From positions 62,001 through 126,000 of the forward strand of contig MU058153.1 of NCBI GenBank assembly GCA_013265495.1: 64,000 nucleotides of DNA, read 5' to 3'. The translations under genes were made by a program, and so were the position numbers. The DNA comes from Vicugna vicugna (lineage: Eukaryota). Positions 1 through 56,010 of the stretch are shown here, piece after piece (the stretch's first letter is position 1; every line of letters begins with the position of its first letter). The notes under the pieces are model-generated. The model searched no databases. It saw only the letters and a list, made by a program, of their open reading frames with translations, and was not told the origin of the DNA.

Positions 1-84
1 TTTTTAACAGAGGTACTGAGGATTGAATCTGGGACCTTGTGCATGCTAAGCATACACTCTACCACTGAGCTATACCCTTCCCCC
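1..84 (-). mobile_element. tRNA-derived SINE (camelid Vic-1-like), tail cut by window edge
   Basis: Reverse complement reads GGGGGAAGGGTATAGCTCAGTGGTAGAGTGTATGCTTAGCATGCACAAGGTCCCAGATTCAATCCTCAGTACCTC, with Pol III A/B boxes. Three further similar copies occur in the window. Confidence 0.85.
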
Positions 85-389
85 ATGCATTTCATAATTT
101 CTATAATTCCTGTTCTTAAGTCAAAGTAAAAATATTATACAAATCATTTTATGGTATAAAATAAGGAGTGAAGGAAGTAGGAAAGAGAAGGCAACAATTA
201 GTGGTCTAGCGGTCTGGGGTTTAAGATTACCTTTCACATTAGTGCAGCTTCGTGAACCATTTGAACGGTTGGTATTTATGTGTGGTGCACAAAGGCTGAG
301 CTGCCATCAGCAGTTTTCTGAATGTCGCTTGAACTCCTGTCAAGTAACGGGATATTCATTCATCTTCATCAGCTATAAATTTGGAATCC

Positions 390-1234: not shown

Positions 1235-1613
1235 CGTACTAATTTTCGAGGGCTACCATAACAACGTAGTACAGTTTGAGTGGCTTAAACAGCAGAAATT
1301 TATTTTGCCACAATTTTGGAGGCCAGAGGTCTGAGAGCAAGGCATGGGCAGGCTTGGTGTCTTCTGAGGCCTGTTTCTGCGGCTTGGGAGACGGATGCTT
1401 TTTCTCTGTGTCTTCACATGTCTTCCTCTGTGTTTATGTCTGTGTCCTGTTCTCCTTTTCTCCATATTGGCTTAGGGCTGACTCTAATGATCTCTTTTTA
1501 ACTAAATTACCTCCTTAAAGGTCCTACCTCCACGTAGAGTGGCATTCTGGGGGACTAAGGGATTAGGACTTCAACATATGAAATTTGGGAGGGACACAGT
1601 TCAGCCCACAACA
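1235..1613 (-). mobile_element. MLT1A-like MaLR solo LTR
   Basis: 'gtggcttaaacagcagaaatttatt...ggaggccagaggtctgag...ttaggacttcaacatatgaa...gacacagttcagcccacaaca'. Confidence 0.85.
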
Positions 1614-1919
1614 CATGAGTTTCCTTTCTTATTTCTTCTTCATTAATTTTTTGGTAGAATTTTGATATTGTAATTCATTGAAAGCTACTGGTGAATGAAA
1701 GACAACTCTCCCCACCCCCACCACCCCAAAAGCATGCAAAGCTGTGGGCGTGGCTTAGCAGGATGAAGGTTCTTCTTCAGGATCAGTGTTTATTCTTAGA
1801 TGTAACGTGGGTTTAACGCAGATACATTATGACATTGTAGACCTGATAGAAAATAGAAAGCTTCATCAGCTACTTAAAAATGTTTTGTATGTTTATCCAC
1901 AAACTTAAATAGAAAGAAA

Positions 1920-12062: not shown

Positions 12063-15000
12063 AGTAATACCTCATTCAAGTAACACTCACTTGAACATTT
12101 TTTTAACTTCAGAGTATTAATATTGGAGTTGCTGCATTTCTGATTATAAAGATTATAAAGTAAATCATCTCTACTGTCAAGGAGTCAACATTTTGGTGGA
12201 GAAGCCAGAAACTCACTATGTTAAAAAGAAGTTAAGATTGTTTAACTCGTCGTAGGAGAAATAAGATGACATAGGGACAATCTAATGCTAATGAAATGTA
12301 TCAAGTTCCTTGGATTTATCATCCCATAATCCAGATTTGAGTGCAACCTTATAAACAGTCCTTCATCATTCCAATTCTTTCTAGAAGCCTTGTACATAGT
12401 AAGTTAAAGCAACACACAATTATACATTTATTCATCTGCTGAATGAAACTTTATTAAGAATCTAATATGGGTCAGGCACTGTATTACACAATTGACATTA
12501 TGCTGGTACTCTGAGGGATTGAATCAAACAGAACACAACATCCAACAGAGAATGAAGGGTTAACTCAAATAGAAGAGAATGACAGAGGAGAGAAAACCTC
12601 TCAGTATCTAGAGGAATAGGAGGTTTCAGCGTTGAGGAAATCACATCCCCTCTTCCTGCCCAAAAATAAGAAGGAAAATATCAGAATGCAAAGATAAGTT
12701 ATTCTTCTCTCAATTTCAATAGAAAAACGGAAAGGTTCAGGGAATGAAAAAGAATGAAAGCTATAAAAATGTACTTGGCAAGTACATTTCAATTTACTTC
12801 AGTTTATTATTCTTTATCTATCTCATCTAAATAGTTCCTTTAGGTTAACTGAATAGAATTGCAGAGTATTCAGTGGGGACCGCAGGAGCAGGAACCGTAC
12901 CTTGTTCAGTGATGGAATCAGTCCTTCATCCCCATTTTGCCTTTGCATATGCGCTGTTCAAACCTTCAAGTCTCAACATCCTGGTCTTTCTACTGTGATT
13001 AGCAAATGCCAAATCAATTTAAGAACCATTGCACTGAACATCAAGGAGTTAAATCATCCCTTGGAAACTGAGTTAGAACAGATTCTGATATTGGTTTTAT
13101 TGAATCACTTAATTCTATGTAAAGAGAAAGAGGAGCCTAAGTGTGAGGAATGTCTGAAAGTCAGTAGTGTCATACCCTACCCAGGCCTCCCCTTCTCGGG
13201 TGTGCCGTCTATGACAGGCAATCCCTTGGGTCACACCTGCATCAGAAACATTCTTTTACATGGCTTTCATCTGACATTCGGCATTCTTTTCATATATATC
13301 ATCACAGTGCAGAGGTATACCCAAGCCATCATTGCGTTCTCTGTCATGTTTTCAAATACCCTAGAATTTCCCTGTGTCTGTTTTTAACACAACTGTACAG
13401 AAATCATTAACTGAAGAAATTACTGTTTAATATTTTTCTCCACTGTGAGAATTACTCAGTTTTGTATGTTTTGCTCTGTCTTCCTCATCACTAACGTCCA
13501 GTTTTCAGAAAAGTACATGCCACAAAGTAAATACTTGTCGAATGAAAAGTGACGTGTGTGAAAACAGTCTTCATACCAATGCACTGCAAACTTTAGAGTA
13601 TGTAACACTTCTGATCTCTTTCCGTTCCTCGAGCCAGATGTTTTAATTCACTAAATTGGGGCAGGGTTCATGATTTTTGTTTCTAAGAGGCTCAAGGGTG
13701 ATGCTCAAGCAGCACTTTGGGCAGCACTTGTCCACATGACTCTATGGCCTCGCTGAAGAAACCAATGATAAGATTCCAAAGCTGCACTTGAACGGTTGTG
13801 GCCTTCAAAGCCCATTTGAGACATTGTACATAGTGATCAGGGATTTCTGGTGTCCCCATTTCTGGTGTCCCCATATCCCCCATATATAGGGATCTGTCTG
13901 TTGTTTTACTTGGGCCAAGAATAGACTCAGGTAGCCCAAGGGATTAGGAAATTCCTTGGACATTTTTACTCTGGACCTTAACTATCTACAGCTCACATTT
14001 CACTATGTATCCCTGATGGTGGGGGTAATTTCATTACGATTTCACATTTCCTCCTTTTGCACCAGTTTGAATCAAGCTACTGATGAACACTGCCTTCCTC
14101 GCAGGACTGCCTAGCCACTGATTTATTTCTGAGTTTTGGAGGAAAGTTTCAGAGAACTTGAAGTTCATATTTACCTACCTGTTTCCCACCATTCACAGAT
14201 GGACTGTCAAACACCACGTATCAATTCAAATCTGAGAGTACATACAACGCTGTATCTCCTCCTGACACTTCAACTGGTTCATTTGCCTACTGCCACCTCT
14301 CTTGTTGCAATTCTGTTCTGACAGTGTCCAGTTTCTGAGAAATTTAAATTCAACTCAGTGCTTTACTGCAATAGTTGCACAGTGATTGGCATTTTAGTAA
14401 CTGTTTGGAACTAAATGAATTGCAAGTTTCCTCTACCCACTACTGTTTTGAGGAGGAGTGACTGTCTCAAGTTTTGAGGAAGAAAAAAACCATCTAGTCA
14501 AAGAAGTGGGAAAAAAGAGAGTAATAATGTATATACAAAGACTGCTTACAATTGCTGTGCGATCCTTAGGAGGCAAAGGTGGGCTGTAATTCTTTCACTC
14601 TGATTATTATAGAGTCTCTTCTGTGGTCTTAACCACATCTCCCTTTTCTGGAACTGGACTGTGAATGGGTGCTGTTCCAGAAACCAAGTAAGACAATGGA
14701 ATCACCATCTATCCTTACATCAATCTTCAGCTCTTCGATTTCAAGCAGATTTGGAGCTCTGTAATCTGCTACTCCATCACACGGGCCTGGGACCTTAAGA
14801 TCATTGCCATTCTTCCTAGTCATCAACTAATGTTTACATAGTAGAATATGCCTGCACAGAGCATCGTTCCTCTAAAACATCTCCAAATTTCTAACTTGTC
14901 TTTAAAAGAATGAAAGAAAGAAAAATCATTCTCTTTACCCAGCATCGTATTTGGTAAGTAGACAATTGAGGGAAAGTAGATTTGGATTTTTCCCTCCAAG

Positions 15001-17824
15001 GTTCTAGTATGCCTATTGGTATCACACTATGTTCTTAGAAATCACAAATTTCTCAGCCCTCTGATGAAAATGAAGTCCCCATGTATCAGAGACTGTTATG
15101 AATCACAAATCCACGTCACTGAAAATTTACCATCACCCAGAGTTTTGACCTGAGAAGGTACCCTCTCTCTCATTTATACCTTACATTGCCAGTAATTTTC
15201 CCTCCATGATACTTTCTCTAGCTCGTTTTGTTCCGAATTTCCAGACTCCTCTCTACTGGTAAATCACACTGGCTCATTATACGGGCTTCAGTAAGTGGGA
15301 TTTTCCTGCATCAGTCTTTCTTCACCTCCTGCATTAATCTTCTCTTCTCATTCTTTTTTGGACATTGATGAGTTGCGGTCCCCCACTCCCTTTAAATGCA
15401 CACCTCCACCTTCTCCAGCTAAACAGAGCCAGGATATCACCAGCTTCAATGCACAGAACTTGAAACAAATGACCCTGACTTCTTGTCAGCTTTGTATGAA
15501 TAAACAGATTAGATTTCTGTTTTCCCCATGTAATTCTCTGCTGAAAAATGCATTTTTCAGCAAATATGTCTTAGCTGAGGTACATAAGTGTTCTCATTTA
15601 GCAAAAGGCAGCCTGTGATGCAGAAGAATAAAAGGCTTTGGTTGAAAAAGGCCTTAGAATAGAGAATGTTCTATATCTCATATAGATGCTGAAAAAAATA
15701 TTCATTGAACTGGGTAACATAGTAAGTAAGTTAGAAAAGTAGATCCAGCTCAGTGATTCTCTCCAAAAGTGCCCACCGGTCTATGCATGAAGCACAGAGG
15801 CTTTATTTCTTCATCTTCACTTTGTGTAAGCAAGGACACTTGCCGTCCTTTGTCTACTACAATTGTAGGATAACTTGGGGAGTAACACAAAGAAGATCGT
15901 TCCTTGAAGCTGGAAATGTGTCGTGTTGAACTCTGTAGCCACAGCGCTCAGCAATATGTCTGGACCGTAAAACGTATATGATGGATGCTCGCTGGGTGAA
16001 AAGGATACTGGAGAGGAAATAAAAACGCAAAGCCATGAAAAAACTCTCCAAATCACACCCTCTCCGTTCAAATATTCATGAATTGATGAGGCGAAGAAAT
16101 TGTTCTGCTCCGTTACAATATCTGTCCCCATTCCCTCTTCCACACATGTAAGCAGCAAGCACTTACTGTCAGATTGTGACCCTGGGGAAGTCATTCATTT
16201 CCACTTGAACCAGCTGTTTCAAATAACTTGTGCATGTTGCGTTTACCAAAGGGAAATTATACCTTTTCTTTCTTTGATTCACTGAGGGATTTTTATTTGG
16301 AAAACATTTACTTGCATCTTTCAGCTGCTGTGATAGATTTCACAGCAAGCATCTCACTGTGAAAGAGGAGCCCCTGCAAACTGCTAACCTTCTTCAAGGT
16401 CCCTTGTGGTGCCAGGCGAAGGGGAACAGGAAGGGAGGCGGACGGGGAGCAGAGTGTTCTCCTGGAATCAACTCATGTGGGGCCACTTCTGAGCAATCTG
16501 TTGAAAAGCAGCCTGTGGGAGGGAAACAGGCTTGGAGCTGCCAGGGCAGCGTTCAGATCTTAGATGCAGAATTTTAAGTTATTGGGCCTTTATATTTCAC
16601 CTCTATAGAGAATAAATGAGAAGAAGATACACCTCTACAGAGTGTATGTAGTACAATGTTTCTAATACATAAGAGATGCTCAAAAATTGTAGCTATTCTT
16701 GTCCTCATTTAGAAAAAACAACCTCTGCCCTTTTAAATAAGGAAACAATAAAATGTGCACATCACTAGGGACGTCATTAGGGAGAACCTGATTGCTTTTT
16801 CAATAGAGGTGATAGAATTGCAGTAACCGACAGCAGTACACACGCCACATTTTCTTGCTGGATCCAACTTGTAACAAATAATTCATGTTTCTAGGGAACA
16901 AGTTCTTTGTCTTTGGTACTTAGAAATAGTTCTAGCATACAGTAGGTATTCAACAAGCATGTGCTTAATCATGCGATGTGTAGATTAGGAGTACAGACTG
17001 TGATGATGCTAAGCAATGGTACAACCTTCATTTCCTACGAACTGGCTAGGTGCAGAGCTTGACGTGCTGTACAAAAAATAGAGAAACGAATGAAGGGGAC
17101 ACTGCCTTTGCCCTCTAGTGTGATTCGGTAGCCAGAGCATATAGGATATGTTCCAGGAAGGGTGAGTCATCTTATGACTGGAGCATCAGATTTGGGGAGA
17201 TTTGAGATGTAATGTTAAATATATCTGGAAATGTGGAATGATATGATATAATAAATGACCTTGAATTCTCAGAAACCGTCAAAAATATTTGATCTAAAGG
17301 AAAGGCTGATCAGATGGGAGCAGTTAGGAGGATATTAAAATAGTCTGGTTTGCTAGTTTTCCATCTCTAACCTACAGGACACAAAGCAACGAGTGGCAGC
17401 GCTCAGAGATCCGTATCCTTACTTTGACTGCAGTCAGCCTGCTTTAAAATGAATCACTATATATTGAAAAATCAGTAGTCTTGGGCAGAGGTGGGAAGAT
17501 GACACACTTCTGACCTAACGTGTCAGGGGGACAGACAGGTCAAATTTGGCAGTTATTAAACAATTACAGTTCAGAGTTAGGTGAGTCATTTCAGGTTTGG
17601 AAAAGAAGGAAAATTAAAAGATGCTCATAAAAATGCCTTGGCTGGAATAAGATGAAATTAACCTGGGGGGGGAAATGTAAGAGGAAGAAATAGGCTTAGG
17701 TGAAAAGATGAATAATTCTAGATATGGAATAAAGTGAGACTAATTAGTCTGAAAAGTGGGGAACAAGAAAATTCATAAGTAAAATACTCTAACCCAAGGA
17801 TGCCCCCAGAATTGTCCAAGTCAG

Positions 17825-19019: not shown

Positions 19020-19170
19020 TATAACGATCAGTACTTCTATAAGGAGATTTCCAATTTGCAGAGTACCCTCACAAATGTTATGTCATTTATTTCTCACAAC
19101 ATTACAATGTGATGGTTCCATCAGATAGTAGCTTCTTCCATTTGTAGATAAGAAAATTGAGACAACAAGG
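19020..19170 (-). mobile_element. MIR SINE
   Basis: 'tgtcatttatttctcacaac...ccattttgtagataagaaaattgagac'. Confidence 0.65.
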
Positions 19171-21037
19171 ATTCATCAGGAGCATTTAGGTGGCTGAATT
19201 ACTTTTCTTGCATTTAAATAGCTTTGCCACTTTTTAAAACGGTCAGGAAAGACCACCTTTGAGATGAGACCCTGTGATGTGTTACAAGCAACACACTGAG
19301 CCCTGTCGTTGAAAATGAATCTGTATGGGCTACTAGCCGACTTCAAGCAACTCCACTCTGCTTCTGAACTATATTTTTATCTTGGCAAAGAACACAGAAT
19401 TTTCAGTCTGCTTTGGCAGTTCTCAGATCCATAATCGCCCAATCCAATTAAAGGTCTATTCACTTCCACCATTACCATTACACTAGGTTGCTCTGCAGTG
19501 ATAAAAGTAGGTTGAACAAAGCAAATCCCATCTGAAAATGAACGATTCTGCCTATTTATTGACATCATCCTTGTCTGTTGTGGACTCACTTGGTATTCAT
19601 TTCCTGGGGCTTTCAGGAGTGTCTGTTTGCTAAGTGAATGAAAGAAAAATTGAAAGCATCAATGTTTACCTGACCTAAGACTTCCATGACAAAAAAAGCT
19701 AAGACCAAAGAGCAAATTAATGCATACATTGGTCACAAACTATAGAGGCAAATGTTTGGAATGTCTTAAAATTTTAATGCATATTTTATACCCCACTGGG
19801 AACATTTAAAAGCTTTGACCTTAGCCTATAACAATTTGGGAAAAAGGAAGGGGGAATGAAGTCTGAACTACACATCGAACAAACTGAATTTGTGTCCAAT
19901 AATGTGAAATGTTTATTTAAACCAGCCCAGCAGAATGTGACAATCTATAGACTAGAGATAGGGGATGTGAGTTCCAGAGGTTGTCAGTAGTTACCAGCGT
20001 GCTCATCCTAAATCATTTAAACTCTACGGTTTTGAGATAGAAAACCAAGGCAGAAGGACTGTTCTGCAGTCAGAAAAACCTAGGATAGGATTCTAAAATC
20101 TATGAGGAAGCCCTCACCTACTAAGTGTAGCTAAATCATCCAGAACCCAAAACATGGATACTATGCCTCTGACCTAAAATTTAAACCACAAAATTTATTA
20201 TTAGCCCTTTCTCCTGAGACTACCCAGACTAAGGCATTTCCTAATTGAGAGAGAAGCATAAATCTCATTTATCATAGAGATTTGGGCAACATATGAAACC
20301 TGGGCTATCAGGGAGGCCAAGAGAAGTGCAGATAACAAGGTCCAAAAATCCTTCCTCATGTCAAAGTGCTAGTAGCCTCAGTACATTCTCTTGTTCTTAA
20401 TGTTAACTCACACCCTGGAGACAAATGAAGAAGAAGTAGGGCGGTCTGCATGTAATAAGGATTATTGAAACTTTACAAAAATGTTTGACAATGTGCCAGG
20501 CATATAAAAACATCAAATACACTTTAGATGTTATTATATTATTATTATTGTCATCGCTATTGTCATGATCCTCAGTATCATCTGGCAAAATCATCTTAAA
20601 GGCTATCAGGTAGTCCCTGAGTTAGCAGCTCTGATTGTAGTCTGTATTCCCCAATGCCCCAGTATGAACTTTGAATCTGTAAGGACATAAATCAAAGGCA
20701 CAATGTCTTTAATTGGATATTCCAGTGCAAATGATCCCTTCACACAAGACGTGCACCTCCCCCATGCAGAATATCTAGCAAAACATTCAGATATCTGCCC
20801 ATCCCCATTCCTGTAATTGATACCCAGTCTTTAGATGGAGCACAGACGAATGCCACAGAACAGGTTAAACTAACTGTTTTCAAACAATTCACTCAAAAAG
20901 AAAAATGAGACTTAGTTATTCAAACTGAACTAGATACCCTATGACCACCAATCAGCTTGAAGTCTACACTGGAAGCACTGTCAGCCTGTGTCTTCCAACT
21001 CACATAGATCCCAGTGTGGGAAAGGGAAACAATGGTA

Positions 21038-21294
21038 TAAAACACTTTCTTTCCAGGGGCACCGTGTGCACCCTGAGAATGCAATTTTTGTGTGGAAGTC
21101 AGACACTAACTTGCCTCTTCCTGAGAACATGACTAAAACACTTTCTTTCCAGGGGCACCGTGTACACCCTGAGAATGCAAGCAACACACTGAGCCCTGCC
21201 GTTGAAAATGAATCTGTATGGGCTACTAGCCCATACAGATTCATTTTGTGTGGAAGTCAGACACTAACTTGCCTCTTCCTGAGAACATGGTGAC
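21038..21294 (+). repeat. ~95-bp tandem duplication with templated insert and 21-bp perfect inverted repeat in copy 2
   Basis: Copy 1 is 21038-21131 and copy 2 starts at 21134. Segment 21178-21231 matches 19285-19338 at 53/54 bp. Inverted arms are 21205-21225 and 21227-21247. Confidence 0.95.
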
Positions 21295-21927
21295 TGCACT
21301 TCAGGGATCATAAAGCCTTCAGATATTTAAGGAAACAGTACTAGAAGGTCAAGTAGCCCTCAGATGACTGACTGCAGAGATCTTATTAAAGTAAGACCAC
21401 CCTTATTTATTAAGGGAGCTTCTTGGAAAGAAAACCAGCTTTTCATTTTTGTGTACCCTGCAGGTAGTTGTCTTCAAGGTAGGGGCCATCCCATCAAAAT
21501 TTATTCCTGAAATGCCTTCAGGTCAGACTCCACCCACTGGCCAGGGTTGTTATGGATGATCAAGTTATTCTAGACTTCCTCCTTACAAGCCAATGTAATG
21601 CAATCACTAAGACATTCTTCTCTACCTGAATTAATGCCAGGTGCCAAATGGAAAAGTCAGTAGAGACTTTTAAATAGAGACCTGAATTTCTAAGTTAGAT
21701 CCTGATAATGTGGGGATTTGCTCAACTTGTTGGGTCCAGGATCCTGAGGACGACGGTTGTGGTCAACATTGTTGGTTGACCTCATCCTGCTGCTTGACGT
21801 CTTGTTGCTAGAATCCTTTACTCAATGCTATAAGAAACAAATGTGAACTAATTTATTTCCTGACTAGTTTGTCTGATTAATGATGGATTACCATACTCAT
21901 GGGAACATTTTCTGGAAACCAAGACAA

Positions 21928-22387
21928 TGTAGGAATGAGAGGTAACTCTCCATGTGTCCTTCATATCTCTGCATGTTAGTAGAGCAAAAGTCTTGGAAGA
22001 CAGTGATAATGGCTCCCTCTAGAGAGAAGTACAGATTTGTTTGCTGTACTGTAAAATAAAGATGGTGTCTCCATTCCTGGGCAAAGATAAAGTAACCTTA
22101 TTACCTATCATCAAAGATTTAGATTCTCTAAACTGAGATTCCTCTCTCGTTAACACACACTGCACATATAGATGTCTAGCTTTTCTGTGCTATTCTGCGG
22201 AACGTGGGGCTCTGAGAACCAGCACAAATGCTGATGCTCTAGACATTGCTGTGGCTGTAAGTAATACAGTTTTTCTCTCTGATCCAGGAGGCTCATGTCT
22301 TTTGCCACCCCCCATGCAATTGTAGCAAGCTGACTTTTTCATTTGTAAGCAAGATAAAGTCTCAAACTCTGTCCAGAGTTCTTTACA
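21928..22387 (+). mobile_element. ERVL solo LTR (MER54/MER73/MER74/LTR53 group)
   Basis: TGT...ACA ends; 'cttggaagacagtgataatggctccctctagag...aataaagatggtgtctcc...gggcaaag'. Confidence 0.7.
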
Positions 22388-23080: not shown

Positions 23081-23092
23081 TTTAAAAAACAT

Positions 23093-23225
23093 GGGGAAGG
23101 GTATAGCTCCAGTGGTAGAGTGCAGGCTTACCATGCACGATCCTGCGTTCAATCCCCAGTACCTCCATTGAAATGAATCAGTAAATAAATAAACCTAATT
23201 ACCTCCCACCCACCCCACCAAAAAA
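23093..23225 (+). mobile_element. tRNA-derived SINE (Vic-1-like)
   Basis: GGGGAAGGGTATAGCTCCAGTGGTAGAGTGCAGGCTTACCATGCACGATCCTGCGTTCAATCCCCAGTACCTCC plus tail. Flanks aaaaaacat / aagaaacat are a probable TSD. Confidence 0.85.
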
Positions 23226-39862: not shown

Positions 39863-40231
39863 TGTATTAGTTCTCTAGGGCTGCCAGAATGAAATATCAT
39901 AGACAGGGTGAGTTAAACAGCAGAAGTGTATTTTCTCACAGTTCCGGAGGCGAGAAGTCTGAGATCAGGGTGCTGGCAGGTTTGCTTTCTTCTGGAGCCT
40001 TTCCTTTTGGTTTGCAGATGGCTGCCTTCTCCCTGTGTCTTGCCTCTGTGCCTGAGTGCTCTCTGTGTGTCCAGATCTCCTCAGATTAGATTGGGGCCCG
40101 CCCTGACAGCCTCCTTTTAATGTAACTGCTTCTTTAAAGACATTATCTCCAAATACAGTGACATTCTAAGGTCCTGGGGTTAGGAGTGCAACATATGAAT
40201 GGGGGCAGGGGGTACAAATCAACCCAGAACA
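39863..40231 (-). mobile_element. MLT1A-like MaLR solo LTR
   Basis: 'tgtattagttctctagggctgcc...ttaaacagcagaagtgtattttctcacagttccggagg...tctccaaatacagtgacattct...aacccagaaca'. Confidence 0.85.
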
Positions 40232-41095
40232 CTGTGTCCTTTCCCTCTTTGTCCTGAATAACTTGTTAATTAATTGCAGAGACTTGAGAGAGTAACTTGC
40301 TGACCATCTCTCTCGGTTGTGTACTTGTGTGTGTATCTGTGCAGTTGAGCATTCTTAAAACAGACACCTAAGCACCCTGTGGATGTGGGACATTCCAAAT
40401 GGAAAAGCGAGAAAAATACACAAGACTGTTGTGCTTGCATGAAGTCACTAGTGTATTTCTTCAGACTTCTGGCAAGCTACATACATGATTTAGGAAAGGG
40501 ATTTGCGCTGAAGGTACTATAAAAACAGTCTTCTCTGGGGGATATTTAAAAACTTCAGGATGTTATGCATTTTACACTTGAAAACTTATGTCAGGAAATT
40601 TTGCTTCTCTCCAAGGACAAAATCTCAAGTGATAGTTGACGTTTGGTTACCTTTAATCCTTTTTTTATTTTTATTTTTTTCCTTTTTGCCTTGAGGTGGA
40701 CTGTGTTTCCAGCTGACAGACCTTTATGTCTCTTCTTTGGAATTACATTTCACACAACCCCCTGAATCACCTCAGAAAATTACCACGATTAATCAATGAA
40801 GACCAGAGAAATGAAAGAATAACCACCTGTCTGTAGTCAGTTTCCTTTGATGCAGTACATACACAAGTGAGCTAGAGATTCATGAGTTTGAAAGCTAAAC
40901 TCGATTAGAAGCTGAACTTTTTTTACATAAGGAGCTGTTTCATCTTTATGTTTAGAGCTCTGCTCAACAGAAATTTGTTCAAGGTATATGGCAAAAGAAC
41001 TAATTAGAATTAATAATGGCACGATAAAAAATTATTTTTAGAGAGACTTGCAGTATTAGTATAGACACACTATTTTATGGAGTTTTTAATGAGTG

Positions 41096-54117: not shown

Positions 54118-54757
54118 TGTAGCAGGCAGAATGGCTCCCCTACCCCCAAGCGCCCACATCTTAATCCTGTGAGCCTGTGAATATGTCACACCACATGGCA
54201 CAGAGGAATTAAGGTTGCCAATGGGATTAGATTGCTAATCAATTGACCTTAAAATGAGAGATTACCCTGGATAATCTGGGTGTGCTCAGTGTAATCACAA
54301 GGGTCCTCAAATGGGGAAGAAAGTTAGAAAAGAATAAGAGGGAGAGACAACTATGGAAGAGACACAGAGAGATGCAACATTGCTGGCTTGGAGATGACGG
54401 AAGGGCACTGAGAGCCGAGGACCACGGGTGGCCTCCAGAAGCTGGAGGAGGTGAGACAGCAGATTCTCCCTGGAGGAGAAACAGCTCTGCCAACACAGTG
54501 CTTTTAGTCCAGTGACACCCATGGTGGACTTCTGACCTCTAGAACTGCAAGACAACACATTTGTCCTGTTTTGTTTTTTGTTTTTTGTGTTTTTTTAGAT
54601 AATTACATTTATTTATTTTTTATATTTATTATTGGAGGAGGTACCGGGGATTAAACCCAGGACCTCATGCTTGCTAAGCTTGTGCTCTACTGCTTGAGCT
54701 ATACCCTTCCACCATTTGTCCTGTTTTAAGCCACAAAATTTGCCATCACTTGTAGAG
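54118..54757 (+). mobile_element. MLT1D-like MaLR solo LTR, interrupted by a SINE
   Basis: 'tgtagcaggcagaatggctcccc...gagattaccctggataatctgggtg...ggacttctgacctctagaactgcaaga...ttttaagccac'. Confidence 0.85.
54573..54712 (-). mobile_element. tRNA-derived SINE (Vic-1-like) with perfect 15-bp TSD
   Basis: TSD CATTTGTCCTGTTTT at 54558-54572 and 54713-54727; antisense A-rich tail; TTTT/AA L1-endonuclease site. Confidence 0.9.
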
Positions 54758-55429: not shown

Positions 55430-56010
55430 ATATTAGGACTCTCTCTGTTGCAAGTGACGGTGCCATAGCATAAGCTCTGTTAGGCATATTTGGAACTGAG
55501 GATTTCATGCAGCTGAGAATTCTAGTAGTGTTAGAGACATTAAGAAACGTGAGTTTTGGGGGCAATAGTAGCTCAGTGGTAGAGTGCGTGCTTAGCACGC
55601 ACAAGGTCCTGGGTTCTATCCCCAGTTCTTCCATTAAAGAAGAAAAAAACCAATATGAGTCTTGAATGCTTTCCTTTCTGCCTCTCTCTACCTCTCTTTC
55701 CCCTCTCTTTCTCTGTATGAGGTAGCATTTTTCCATGCACTGCAGTGTGGAATTGGCAACTCGGGCTTCTAGGTTTAAGAAGCTCGAAGGATGCTGGTTG
55801 GCCTGGCTTGGGTCATGTGAGCATCCGTGGACCCATCTTTGTGACTAAGGACATGGATACTAAGATTGGTGAAATCTACATCACCTGAGCAATCCTATAA
55901 CAAAGGCCGAGAGGAAGGCTGGAATGGACAGGCCCGTGGAGAGCATGTTAAGTGGGGGAGGGGCAGTTTCCCAAAGAAAACAATGCTCTGCTAAACAGAA
56001 GAGAGAGGAA
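55430..56010 (-). mobile_element. Old MLT1-like LTR nested in a MIR and interrupted by a SINE
   Basis: 'ttaggactctctctgttgcaagtgac', 'gatgctggttggcctggcttgggtcatgtg', 'gggcagtttcccaaagaaaa'. Confidence 0.6.
55558..55650 (+). mobile_element. tRNA-derived SINE (Vic-1-like)
   Basis: GGGGGCAATAGTAGCTCAGTGGTAGAGTGCGTGCTTAGCACGCACAAGGTCCTGGGTTCTATCCCCAGTTCTTCC plus A-rich tail. Confidence 0.85.

What the first reader, a model, noticed from the sequence alone, without database searches (positions are those of the whole stretch)
21038..21294. Complex repair scar: tandem duplication carrying a 54-bp templated insertion copied from 1.9 kb upstream
Seen: a ~95-bp unit (TAAAACACTTTCTTTCCAGGGGCACC...CTGAGAACATG) occurs twice, at 21038 and 21134. 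Copy 2 is opened at '...GAATGCAA' by sequence matching 19285-19338 at 53/54 bp, in the same orientation. The entry junction shares CAA with the donor, and the exit junction rejoins the unit through ATTTT. Known: microhomology-flanked templated insertions from nearby DNA are signatures of polymerase-theta end joining and of FoSTeS/MMBIR template switching. Inference: one germline event with at least three template switches. It is recent given the near identity of the copies, so it may be lineage-specific or polymorphic.
Basis: partly seen in the sequence, partly recalled or inferred. Interest (0 to 1): 0.75.

Follow-up and report, generated by a model that had tools for sequence, protein, structure and literature searches.

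The report
Real repair insertion, false tandem duplication
A 62-base patch copied from DNA 1.9 kb away and then folded back on itself is present in several related animals, likely as an ordinary DNA-repair scar that some chromosomes carry and others lack, while the tandem duplication around it is likely an assembly error that wrote the two alleles side by side.

Summary
The net insert is 62 bp: a 54-bp copy of 19285-19338, then 16 nt of its own reverse complement, with 3, 5 and 4 nt of microhomology at the three joins.

The insert is real. Contigs of 6 of 8 laid runs, from five organism labels, hold it.

The duplication probably is not. Run X3 joins 21036 to 21133: insert, one unit only. In the other five, contigs pass unbroken through the two places where a tandem copy would branch, and both an uninterrupted and an interrupted unit are present, as in heterozygotes. 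The window's copy 2 starts exactly at the base (C) by which X3's insert allele differs from copy 1, which fits an assembler writing out both arms of a heterozygous bubble. The source individual's reads were not seen.

Verdict: a polymorphic complex microhomology-mediated templated insertion, a known class, inside a likely false duplication. The scan has noted similar scars elsewhere in this genome, none at this locus. Interest low.

The parts
19285..19338 (+). Donor of the insert (54 bp), still in place
   Evidence: 53/54 identical to 21178-21231; runs X6 and X12 hold the 54 nt as one contig with no other letters at 1.5-2 times flank depth, which suggests donor = insert there
19328..19338 (+). 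Small natural inverted repeat GGCTA-C-TAGCC at the donor's end; the likely primer of the fold-back
   Evidence: sequence; such 5-1-5 repeats are common, 109 in the window; the donor region alone does not fold better than shuffles (z +1.1)
21037..21131 (+). Copy 1 = uninterrupted (empty) allele: base A at 21037, part A 21038-21084, T 21085, part B 21086-21131
   Evidence: contigs over the A-T-B join in X1, X6, X8, X12, X14; 21068 reads A, not the window's G, in X1, X6, X8
21132..21133 (+). Seam between the copies: one unexplained A, then a C that equals the base before part A in the insert allele of run X3
   Evidence: joint 21036 to 21133, skips 96, depth 36, 97 letters on the short side; in-register context
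21134..21180 (+). Part A' of the insert allele; ends in CAA shared with the donor's start (entry microhomology, 3 nt)
21178..21231 (+). Direct-orientation copy of the donor
   Evidence: no other letters in the inserted bases in any contig laid
21205..21247 (.). Perfect hairpin, 21-nt arms around 1 nt (folds as 20 bp with a 3-nt loop); 21232-21247 are the 16 fold-back bases; TTTT 21244-21247 is the exit microhomology
   Evidence: covered by a contig in 6 of 6 runs that laid
21244..21289 (+). Part B' of the insert allele, continuing into the unique right flank
   Evidence: 46/46 identical to 21086-21131; contigs run unbroken across 21289/21290 in 6 of 6 runs

Best explanation
The window shows one uninterrupted unit followed by a unit carrying a 62-bp insert; these are likely two alleles of one locus that the assembler wrote in tandem, and the insert is likely the scar of one germline break repaired by three microhomology-primed template switches. 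Inferred steps: a break opened at 21084/21085; the left 3' end (CAA) primed on the donor 1.8 kb upstream and copied 51 nt; the new end TAGCC folded back on GGCTA and copied 16 nt of its own strand; the resulting TTTT annealed to the right end, losing one T. The mirror-image order (starting from the right end, with a strand switch at the donor) gives the same letters and cannot be told apart. The insert allele now segregates with the empty allele. The source individual was likely heterozygous, and a k-mer assembler (k about 47) likely wrote left flank, empty arm plus 46 shared bases, one filler base, then the insert arm from its first differing base. Shown: the anatomy, the insert in independent runs, a single-unit insert allele. 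Inferred: heterozygosity, the artefact, the repair pathway, neutrality.
For: Insert real: fold-back-to-B' contig in 6 of 6 runs that laid, A'-to-donor contig in 5 of 6, labels A-E, five studies. Single unit: X3 joins 21036 to 21133 at depth 36 and runs unbroken from 21202 through B'. No branching: contigs cross the start of A unbroken in X1, X6, X8, X12, X14 and the end of B' unbroken in all six, while the same tables break exactly at the donor repeat and at the two ends of the allele bubble (21084, 21244), so 31-mer branches do break these contigs. Seam: copy 2 begins at the base where X3's insert allele differs from copy 1; differences from the window run at 0.17-0.52 per 100 bases, so a real breakpoint would rarely fall there. 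The three differences between the copies (21037, 21068, 21085) lie 31 and 17 nt apart, one bubble for k=47, and copy 1 ends 46 nt after the last; the same arithmetic gives the observed 21115 and 21151 for k=31. Weak: no listed run holds more than 0.92 of the words; predicted 0.935 for a heterozygote, 0.968 for a tandem carrier, 0.887 for X3 (seen 0.88). Known precedents: complex germline MMB-TIs, 33 and 26 in two people (PMC8421209, section 10 part 1 read); heterotype false duplications (PMC9516828, passages).
Against: The reads of the assembled individual were not seen, and only contigs were laid; contigs drop rare variants and graph cleaning can remove an edge. Branch depths are not clean halves: uninterrupted 0.47-0.76 of flank (4 runs), entry 0.58-0.91 (4 runs), exit 0.34-0.97 (5 runs), and the tool warns that contig depth is no copy number. 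Five of six runs look heterozygous, which is a lot unless ranking by shared words selected them. The seam can also be read as a real slip: B ends in TG and ACT follows a TG three bases downstream in the flank. One base (21132) is unexplained, k=47 is fitted after the fact, and the window has no N at the seam. Whether the insert alleles of the five other runs also carry C before A is unknown. A 1.8-kb-distant template is unusual for polymerase theta: in worms about 3% of inserts mapped to distant sites and most are under 25 bp (PMC5068794, passages).
Confidence: 0.7

Rival explanations
1. One real event made duplication and insert together. A later in-register 96-bp deletion of 21037-21132 gave the single-unit insert allele, which spread, while the window's animal kept the original form.
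For: The window's letters allow it. It explains the C in X3 as a leftover of the seam. The seam can be read as a short slip with 2-nt microhomology.
Against: The deletion would have to cross over one base outside the homology (joint with 0 shared letters). The unbroken contigs across the start of A and the end of B' in five runs of four labels argue that they lack the tandem form. The original allele would have to be rarer than its derivative in every label sampled.
Confidence: 0.12
2. The tandem form is real but later and private: in a heterozygous ancestor a template switch or non-homologous join between homologues placed an empty unit in front of an insert unit.
For: Explains why the copies look like two alleles. 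A true allele-specific tandem duplication is mentioned in PMC9516828 (passage). X12 may hold another junction near this site (residual depth).
Against: The breakpoint would have to fall exactly on an allelic difference, about 0.2-0.5% per base. No listed run reaches the word share expected of a carrier (weak).
Confidence: 0.08
3. Same alleles and same artefact, other chemistry for the insert: the fold-back formed first at the donor (a flap or single-stranded piece), and the finished fragment was captured at the break by end joining.
For: Yeast 'distant inverted insertions' hold two overlapping pieces of one locus in opposite orientation, with 0-4 nt microhomology to the break ends and 2-11 nt (median 6) between the pieces (PMC11724301, section 19 read). 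Here the values are 3, 4 and 5 nt.
Against: Those donors are from anywhere in the genome and the events were seen in mutants. Here the donor is 1.8 kb away and both ends carry microhomology with no untemplated base, which a primed copy predicts directly.
Confidence: 0.3
4. The two forms are paralogues in a larger collapsed duplication, not alleles.
For: Both forms occur together in 5 of 6 runs, and some branch depths approach flank depth. X12 has an unlisted two-piece record that could be the join of a 376-bp tandem unit.
Against: X3 holds the insert form in one continuous path. Ranking by shared words favours carriers of both forms.
Confidence: 0.05

Closest known systems
Complex germline microhomology-mediated templated insertions (MMB-TI, class CM; Osia et al. 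2021, PMC8421209; abstract and section 10 part 1 read)
   Same: Insert of 25 bp or more built from more than one nearby template, several switches, microhomology at the joins, germline variant; 33 and 26 such events per person in that study.
   Different: Non-human mammal; the first patch is a direct copy from 1.8 kb away and the second a fold-back on the first. The pathway is inferred in both.
Distant inverted insertions and fold-back insertions at yeast breaks (Yu et al. 2024, PMC11724301; abstract and section 19 read)
   Same: Two overlapping pieces of one donor locus in opposite orientation; short microhomology at the outer joins, longer at the inner join.
   Different: Induced breaks in yeast mutants with donors genome-wide; here a natural germline allele with a local donor.
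Polymerase-theta templated inserts and snap-back SD-MMEJ (PMC5068794, passages; PMC5728401, abstract; PMC4912351, search listing only)
   Same: Small loss at the break (1 nt), templated patch, snap-back step, microhomology at the final join.
   Different: Those inserts are mostly under 25 bp, copied from within about 10 bp of the break, and error-prone (about 1 in 30); this one is 67 copied bases from 1.8 kb away and appears error-free at birth.
Class 2 templated sequence insertion polymorphisms (Onozawa and Aplan 2016, PMC5110952; passages)
   Same: Polymorphic patch with micro-deletion and microhomology, no target-site duplication, no poly(A), donor left in place.
   Different: Defined by donors from distant regions and proposed to be RNA-derived; here the donor is local and there is a fold-back.
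Heterotype false duplication (Ko et al. 2022, PMC9516828; passages)
   Same: Two alleles assembled next to each other on one scaffold, at a boundary of heterozygous sequence, with a seam that may come from gap filling.
   Different: Their cases are mostly far larger; this is a 96-bp period with no N in the seam, and the read-depth and read-pair tests could not be run on the source individual.

Membership tests
Complex MMB-TI | Insert of 25 bp or more matching nearby templates | tested here: met
   67 copied bases, all assigned to 19288-19338 and to the reverse complement of 21205-21220
Complex MMB-TI | Several template switches with microhomology at the joins | tested here: met
   3 of 3 joins: CAA, GGCTA/TAGCC, TTTT
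Complex MMB-TI | Germline variant, present in real DNA | tested here: met
   6 of 8 laid runs hold it, two gave no contigs; five organism labels
Complex MMB-TI | Made by break-induced replication | not testable with these tools
   pathway cannot be read from one allele
Polymerase-theta end-joining scar | Microhomology at the final join and small deletion | tested here: met
   TTTT, one T lost
Polymerase-theta end-joining scar | Short insert templated from the immediate flanks | tested here: not met
   template 1.8 kb away, 51 nt in one run against under 25 bp and within about 10 bp (PMC5068794); the 16-nt snap-back step does fit
Polymerase-theta end-joining scar | Dependence on POLQ | not testable with these tools
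   needs genetics
Class 1 TSIP (L1-mediated) | Target-site duplication, poly(A), TTTT/A site | tested here: not met
   the single-unit insert allele of X3 has no duplication and no A tail; features from PMC5110952
Class 2 TSIP | Polymorphic patch with end-joining features, no TSD or poly(A) | tested here: met
   both forms in public runs
Class 2 TSIP | Donor in a distant region, RNA-derived | tested here: not met
   donor is local; RNA origin not tested
Heterotype false duplication | The two copies correspond to alleles that exist as single units | tested here: met
   X3 single-unit insert allele; uninterrupted join in five runs with unbroken flanks
Heterotype false duplication | Haploid read depth over each copy in the source individual | not testable with these tools
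   source reads not identified; other runs' branch depths 0.34-0.97 of flank are inconclusive
Heterotype false duplication | [quoted passage not shown] | tested here: inconclusive
   no N in the window; X3 joins across the seam; source reads unseen
Template-switch-born miRNA hairpin | Stem of 30-55 bp (35 preferred) with a loop of 10 nt or more | tested here: not met
   20-bp stem with a 3-nt loop on either strand against PMC10710096 (passages); no Rfam match here
Template-switch-born miRNA hairpin | Transcribed and processed to about 22-nt RNA | not tested

The most novel reading that the evidence does not exclude
The insert is an old polymorphism kept across several camelid species because its one-step perfect hairpin does something: it yields a small RNA, or it extrudes and breaks and so drives recurrent rearrangements here (the window's tandem form and the unlisted X12 junction would be two real products).
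Probability: 0.04. Interest if true: 0.55.

Novelty: new member of a known kind. Interest (0 to 1): 0.2.

Why it matters
As biology it is a clean, fully parseable example of a known germline mutation class and a usable 62-bp presence/absence marker shared by five organism labels; nothing points to a function. Its practical value is as a warning: if the seam is a written-out heterozygous bubble, other short 'perfect tandem duplications' noted in this assembly (for example the 65-bp and 104-bp cases) may have the same origin, and the signature is testable: copy 2 starts at an allelic difference and about 46 shared bases trail copy 1.

Tried and rejected
Parts without cover (not used as evidence). 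No listed contig covers the B-AC-A' seam in X1 (21126-21150 uncovered), X6, X12, X14 (21116-21150) or X8 (21116-21201); residual depth shows no hidden contig there. 14 of 15 allele-join contigs expected in these five runs were seen against 0 of 5 seam contigs (Fisher p 0.0004), but X8 lacks an entry contig it should have, and a filter drops records, so absence proves nothing. X11 and X13 laid nothing. One long unbroken contig of an empty homozygote, filtered out, would look like that, but so would chance; their shares (0.79, 0.78) do not separate the cases (predicted 0.84-0.86 before SNPs). No run covered 19100-19306, so the donor base 19306 was never read directly.

My first reading after (tandem form ancestral, lost in X3; note) rested on a haplotype tree from flank variants. 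I dropped it after because the contigs of heterozygotes are unphased.

Whole-genome search of the window's assembly: none held, so genome-wide copy number of the 54-mer was not counted; depth of 1.5-2 times flank in X6 and X12 argues only against many near-identical copies. No outgroup locus (camel, pig, cow) could be fetched; look-alikes in other scanned genomes: 0.

Host sequence: 21545-22360 resembles a decayed endogenous-retrovirus env end and LTR by my recall only. Pfam on 7 read-through frames and the PDB on one gave no such family. 32 selected ORFs (all 12 of at least 110 aa and 20 shorter ones near the site) gave no Pfam match at the curated cut-off, so no host gene is identified; short exons would be missed. 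Rfam: only two tRNA-like matches at 54.6 and 55.6 kb.

Age: with 0 differences in 67 copied bases the 95% upper bound is 10-22 million years at assumed rates of 2.2 and 1.0e-9 per site and year: too weak to call it recent.

k=49 also places the start of the insert arm at 21133 but does not fit the end of copy 1 or the difference at 21068.

Full report
Observation. The window holds part A at 21038-21084 and 21134-21180 (one mismatch, G 21068 against A 21164) and part B at 21086-21131 and 21244-21289 (identical), with period 96 for A and 158 for B, so copy 2 is 62 bp longer. Bases 21178-21231 match 19285-19338 at 53 of 54 in direct orientation (E 2e-22). An exact-match map shows that 21227-21247 is the reverse complement of 21205-21225. 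It is the only perfect hairpin with arms of 13 bp or more in the 64 kb and folds better than all 200 shuffles (z -7.0). Every inserted base is therefore templated. The three joins share CAA (end of A with the donor's start), GGCTA/TAGCC (a small inverted repeat already present at the donor's end) and TTTT (end of the fold-back with the start of B); one T of the original run of five is lost. Within the window the 54-mer has no further copy with E below 0.3.

Is it in real DNA? No whole genome is held for this window. One run search on 20700-21700 listed 24 runs; 18 hold 0.77-0.92 of 96 sampled words, under five organism labels and eight studies. I laid 8 of the 24 on 19100-21800, four chosen for different labels and four for low shares. 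Six gave contigs; X11 and X13 gave none. All six have a contig over the fold-back and its exit into B'; five have one over the entry from A' into the donor copy (X8 has not). None shows another letter in the inserted bases. The insert is thus real and shared by labels A to E.

The duplication. X3 (depth 36-41) has one contig from 19309 to 21036 that continues at 21133 into the insert, and a second that runs from 21202 through B' into the right flank. That is the insert in a single unit. The other five runs have, besides the insert joins, a contig over the uninterrupted A-T-B join (bridged by the strict rule in X8). In all five the left contig crosses the start of A without a break and stops at the end of A or carries on into B; in all six the right contig crosses the end of B' without a break. 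A tandem copy would give A a second entry and B a second exit, and these tables do break at other 31-mer branches, such as the donor repeat. The simplest reading is a heterozygous bubble: empty allele and insert allele. Depths are only loosely in line (0.34-0.97 of flank) and the tool warns against reading them as copy number. That five of six look heterozygous is expected in part, because carriers of both forms hold more of the window's words. Parts without cover are listed under Tried and rejected only.

The seam. In X3 the base before part A is C where copy 1 has A (21037), and the window's copy 2 is preceded by that same C (21133), with no match further left. So copy 2 begins exactly at the first base by which a known insert allele differs from copy 1. 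Differences from the window run at 0.17-0.52 per 100 bases in the six runs, so a real breakpoint would seldom land there. The three differences between the copies (21037, 21068, 21085) are 31 and 17 bases apart and would form one bubble for a k-mer length of 47; copy 1 ends 46 bases after the last of them. The same rule reproduces the contig ends 21115 and 21151 seen for k=31. This fits an assembler that wrote the left flank, the empty arm with its trailing overlap, one filler base and then the insert arm. It is an inference: k is fitted after the fact, base 21132 is unexplained, there is no N, and the seam can also be read as a short natural slip. False duplications of heterozygous alleles on one scaffold, some with filled gaps, are documented (PMC9516828, passages). 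I put the artefact at about 0.75 and the whole reading at 0.7.

Mechanism of the insert. Most likely a broken 3' end primed on the donor through 3 nt, copied 51 nt, snapped back through the GGCTA/TAGCC repeat, copied 16 nt and annealed to the other end through TTTT. The mirror-image order from the right end gives the same product. This matches the complex class of germline MMB-TIs, 33 of 103 and 26 of 99 curated calls in two people (PMC8421209, section 10 part 1). Capture of a pre-formed fold-back fragment by end joining, as in yeast, fits the microhomology lengths as well (PMC11724301, section 19). Polymerase theta fits the snap-back and final join, less so the distance and fidelity: worm inserts are mostly under 25 bp, primed within about 10 bp of the break, with about 3% from distant sites and about one error in 30 bases (PMC5068794, passages). 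For the insert alone I give primed switching 0.6, fragment capture 0.3, an RNA patch as proposed for class 2 TSIPs (PMC5110952, passages) 0.1.

Age and spread. Both mismatches in the window appear to be later or allelic: 21068 reads A in X1, X6 and X8, and X6 and X12 hold the 54 nt as one contig at raised depth, which suggests a donor identical to the insert. Zero differences in 67 bases bound the age only below 10-22 million years at assumed rates. Sharing among five labels means it predates their split or spread by hybridisation. That the genome is a camelid rests on earlier notes and on my recall of the SINE at 23091-23204; if these are South American camelids, llama-alpaca introgression is large (36% and 5%; PMC7331169, abstract and passages).

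Function. None is indicated. No Pfam family at cut-off in 32 selected ORFs, no Rfam family at the site. The hairpin is 20 bp with a 3-nt loop on both strands, short of the 30-55 bp stem and 10-nt loop used for miRNA-like hairpins (PMC10710096, passages). Expression was not tested.

Novelty. A new member of a known kind. Paper searches concerned mechanisms and background; I did not search for this locus in print and claim nothing about that. PMC5728401 was seen as abstract and outline; no supplements were read.

Noticed in passing
window 20959-20988 and 21305-21334 (run X12): X12's contigs break at these two places and residual depth (194 and 171 depth-bases) points to one unlisted record of about 60 nt in two pieces at depth about 6: a possible further deletion or tandem join around the site, with no microhomology for either reading.
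   Followed up: partly
window about 21545-22360: By recall, resembles the end of a decayed endogenous-retrovirus env gene followed by an old LTR; broken by stops. Pfam and PDB searches found no such family. Public contigs cross it unbroken as far as laid (21800), so it is not a young multi-copy repeat there.
   Followed up: partly
window 2-86, 23091-23204, 54597-54715, 55562-55649: Four mutually similar tRNA-derived short repeats (74-83% identity; two score as tRNA in Rfam); by recall the camelid SINE.
   Followed up: no
window 21068 and 20636: 21068 G and 20636 T are not shared by the laid runs: 20636 reads C in 6 of 6, 21068 reads A in X1, X6, X8. Private variants or assembly errors of the window.
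   Followed up: partly
window 15539-15562: Perfect palindrome with 12-bp arms and no spacer.
   Followed up: no
window 13843-13874: Perfect 15-bp unit in 2.1 copies; could be a small real duplication or another written-out bubble.
   Followed up: no
window 1236-1628 and 39864-40243: A 394-column direct match at 67% identity, probably two copies of an old interspersed repeat.
   Followed up: no
window 20427 (run X12): 3-bp deletion and 11 substitutions over the laid stretch in X12, against 4 in X1 of the same label A: strongly differing haplotypes under one label.
   Followed up: no
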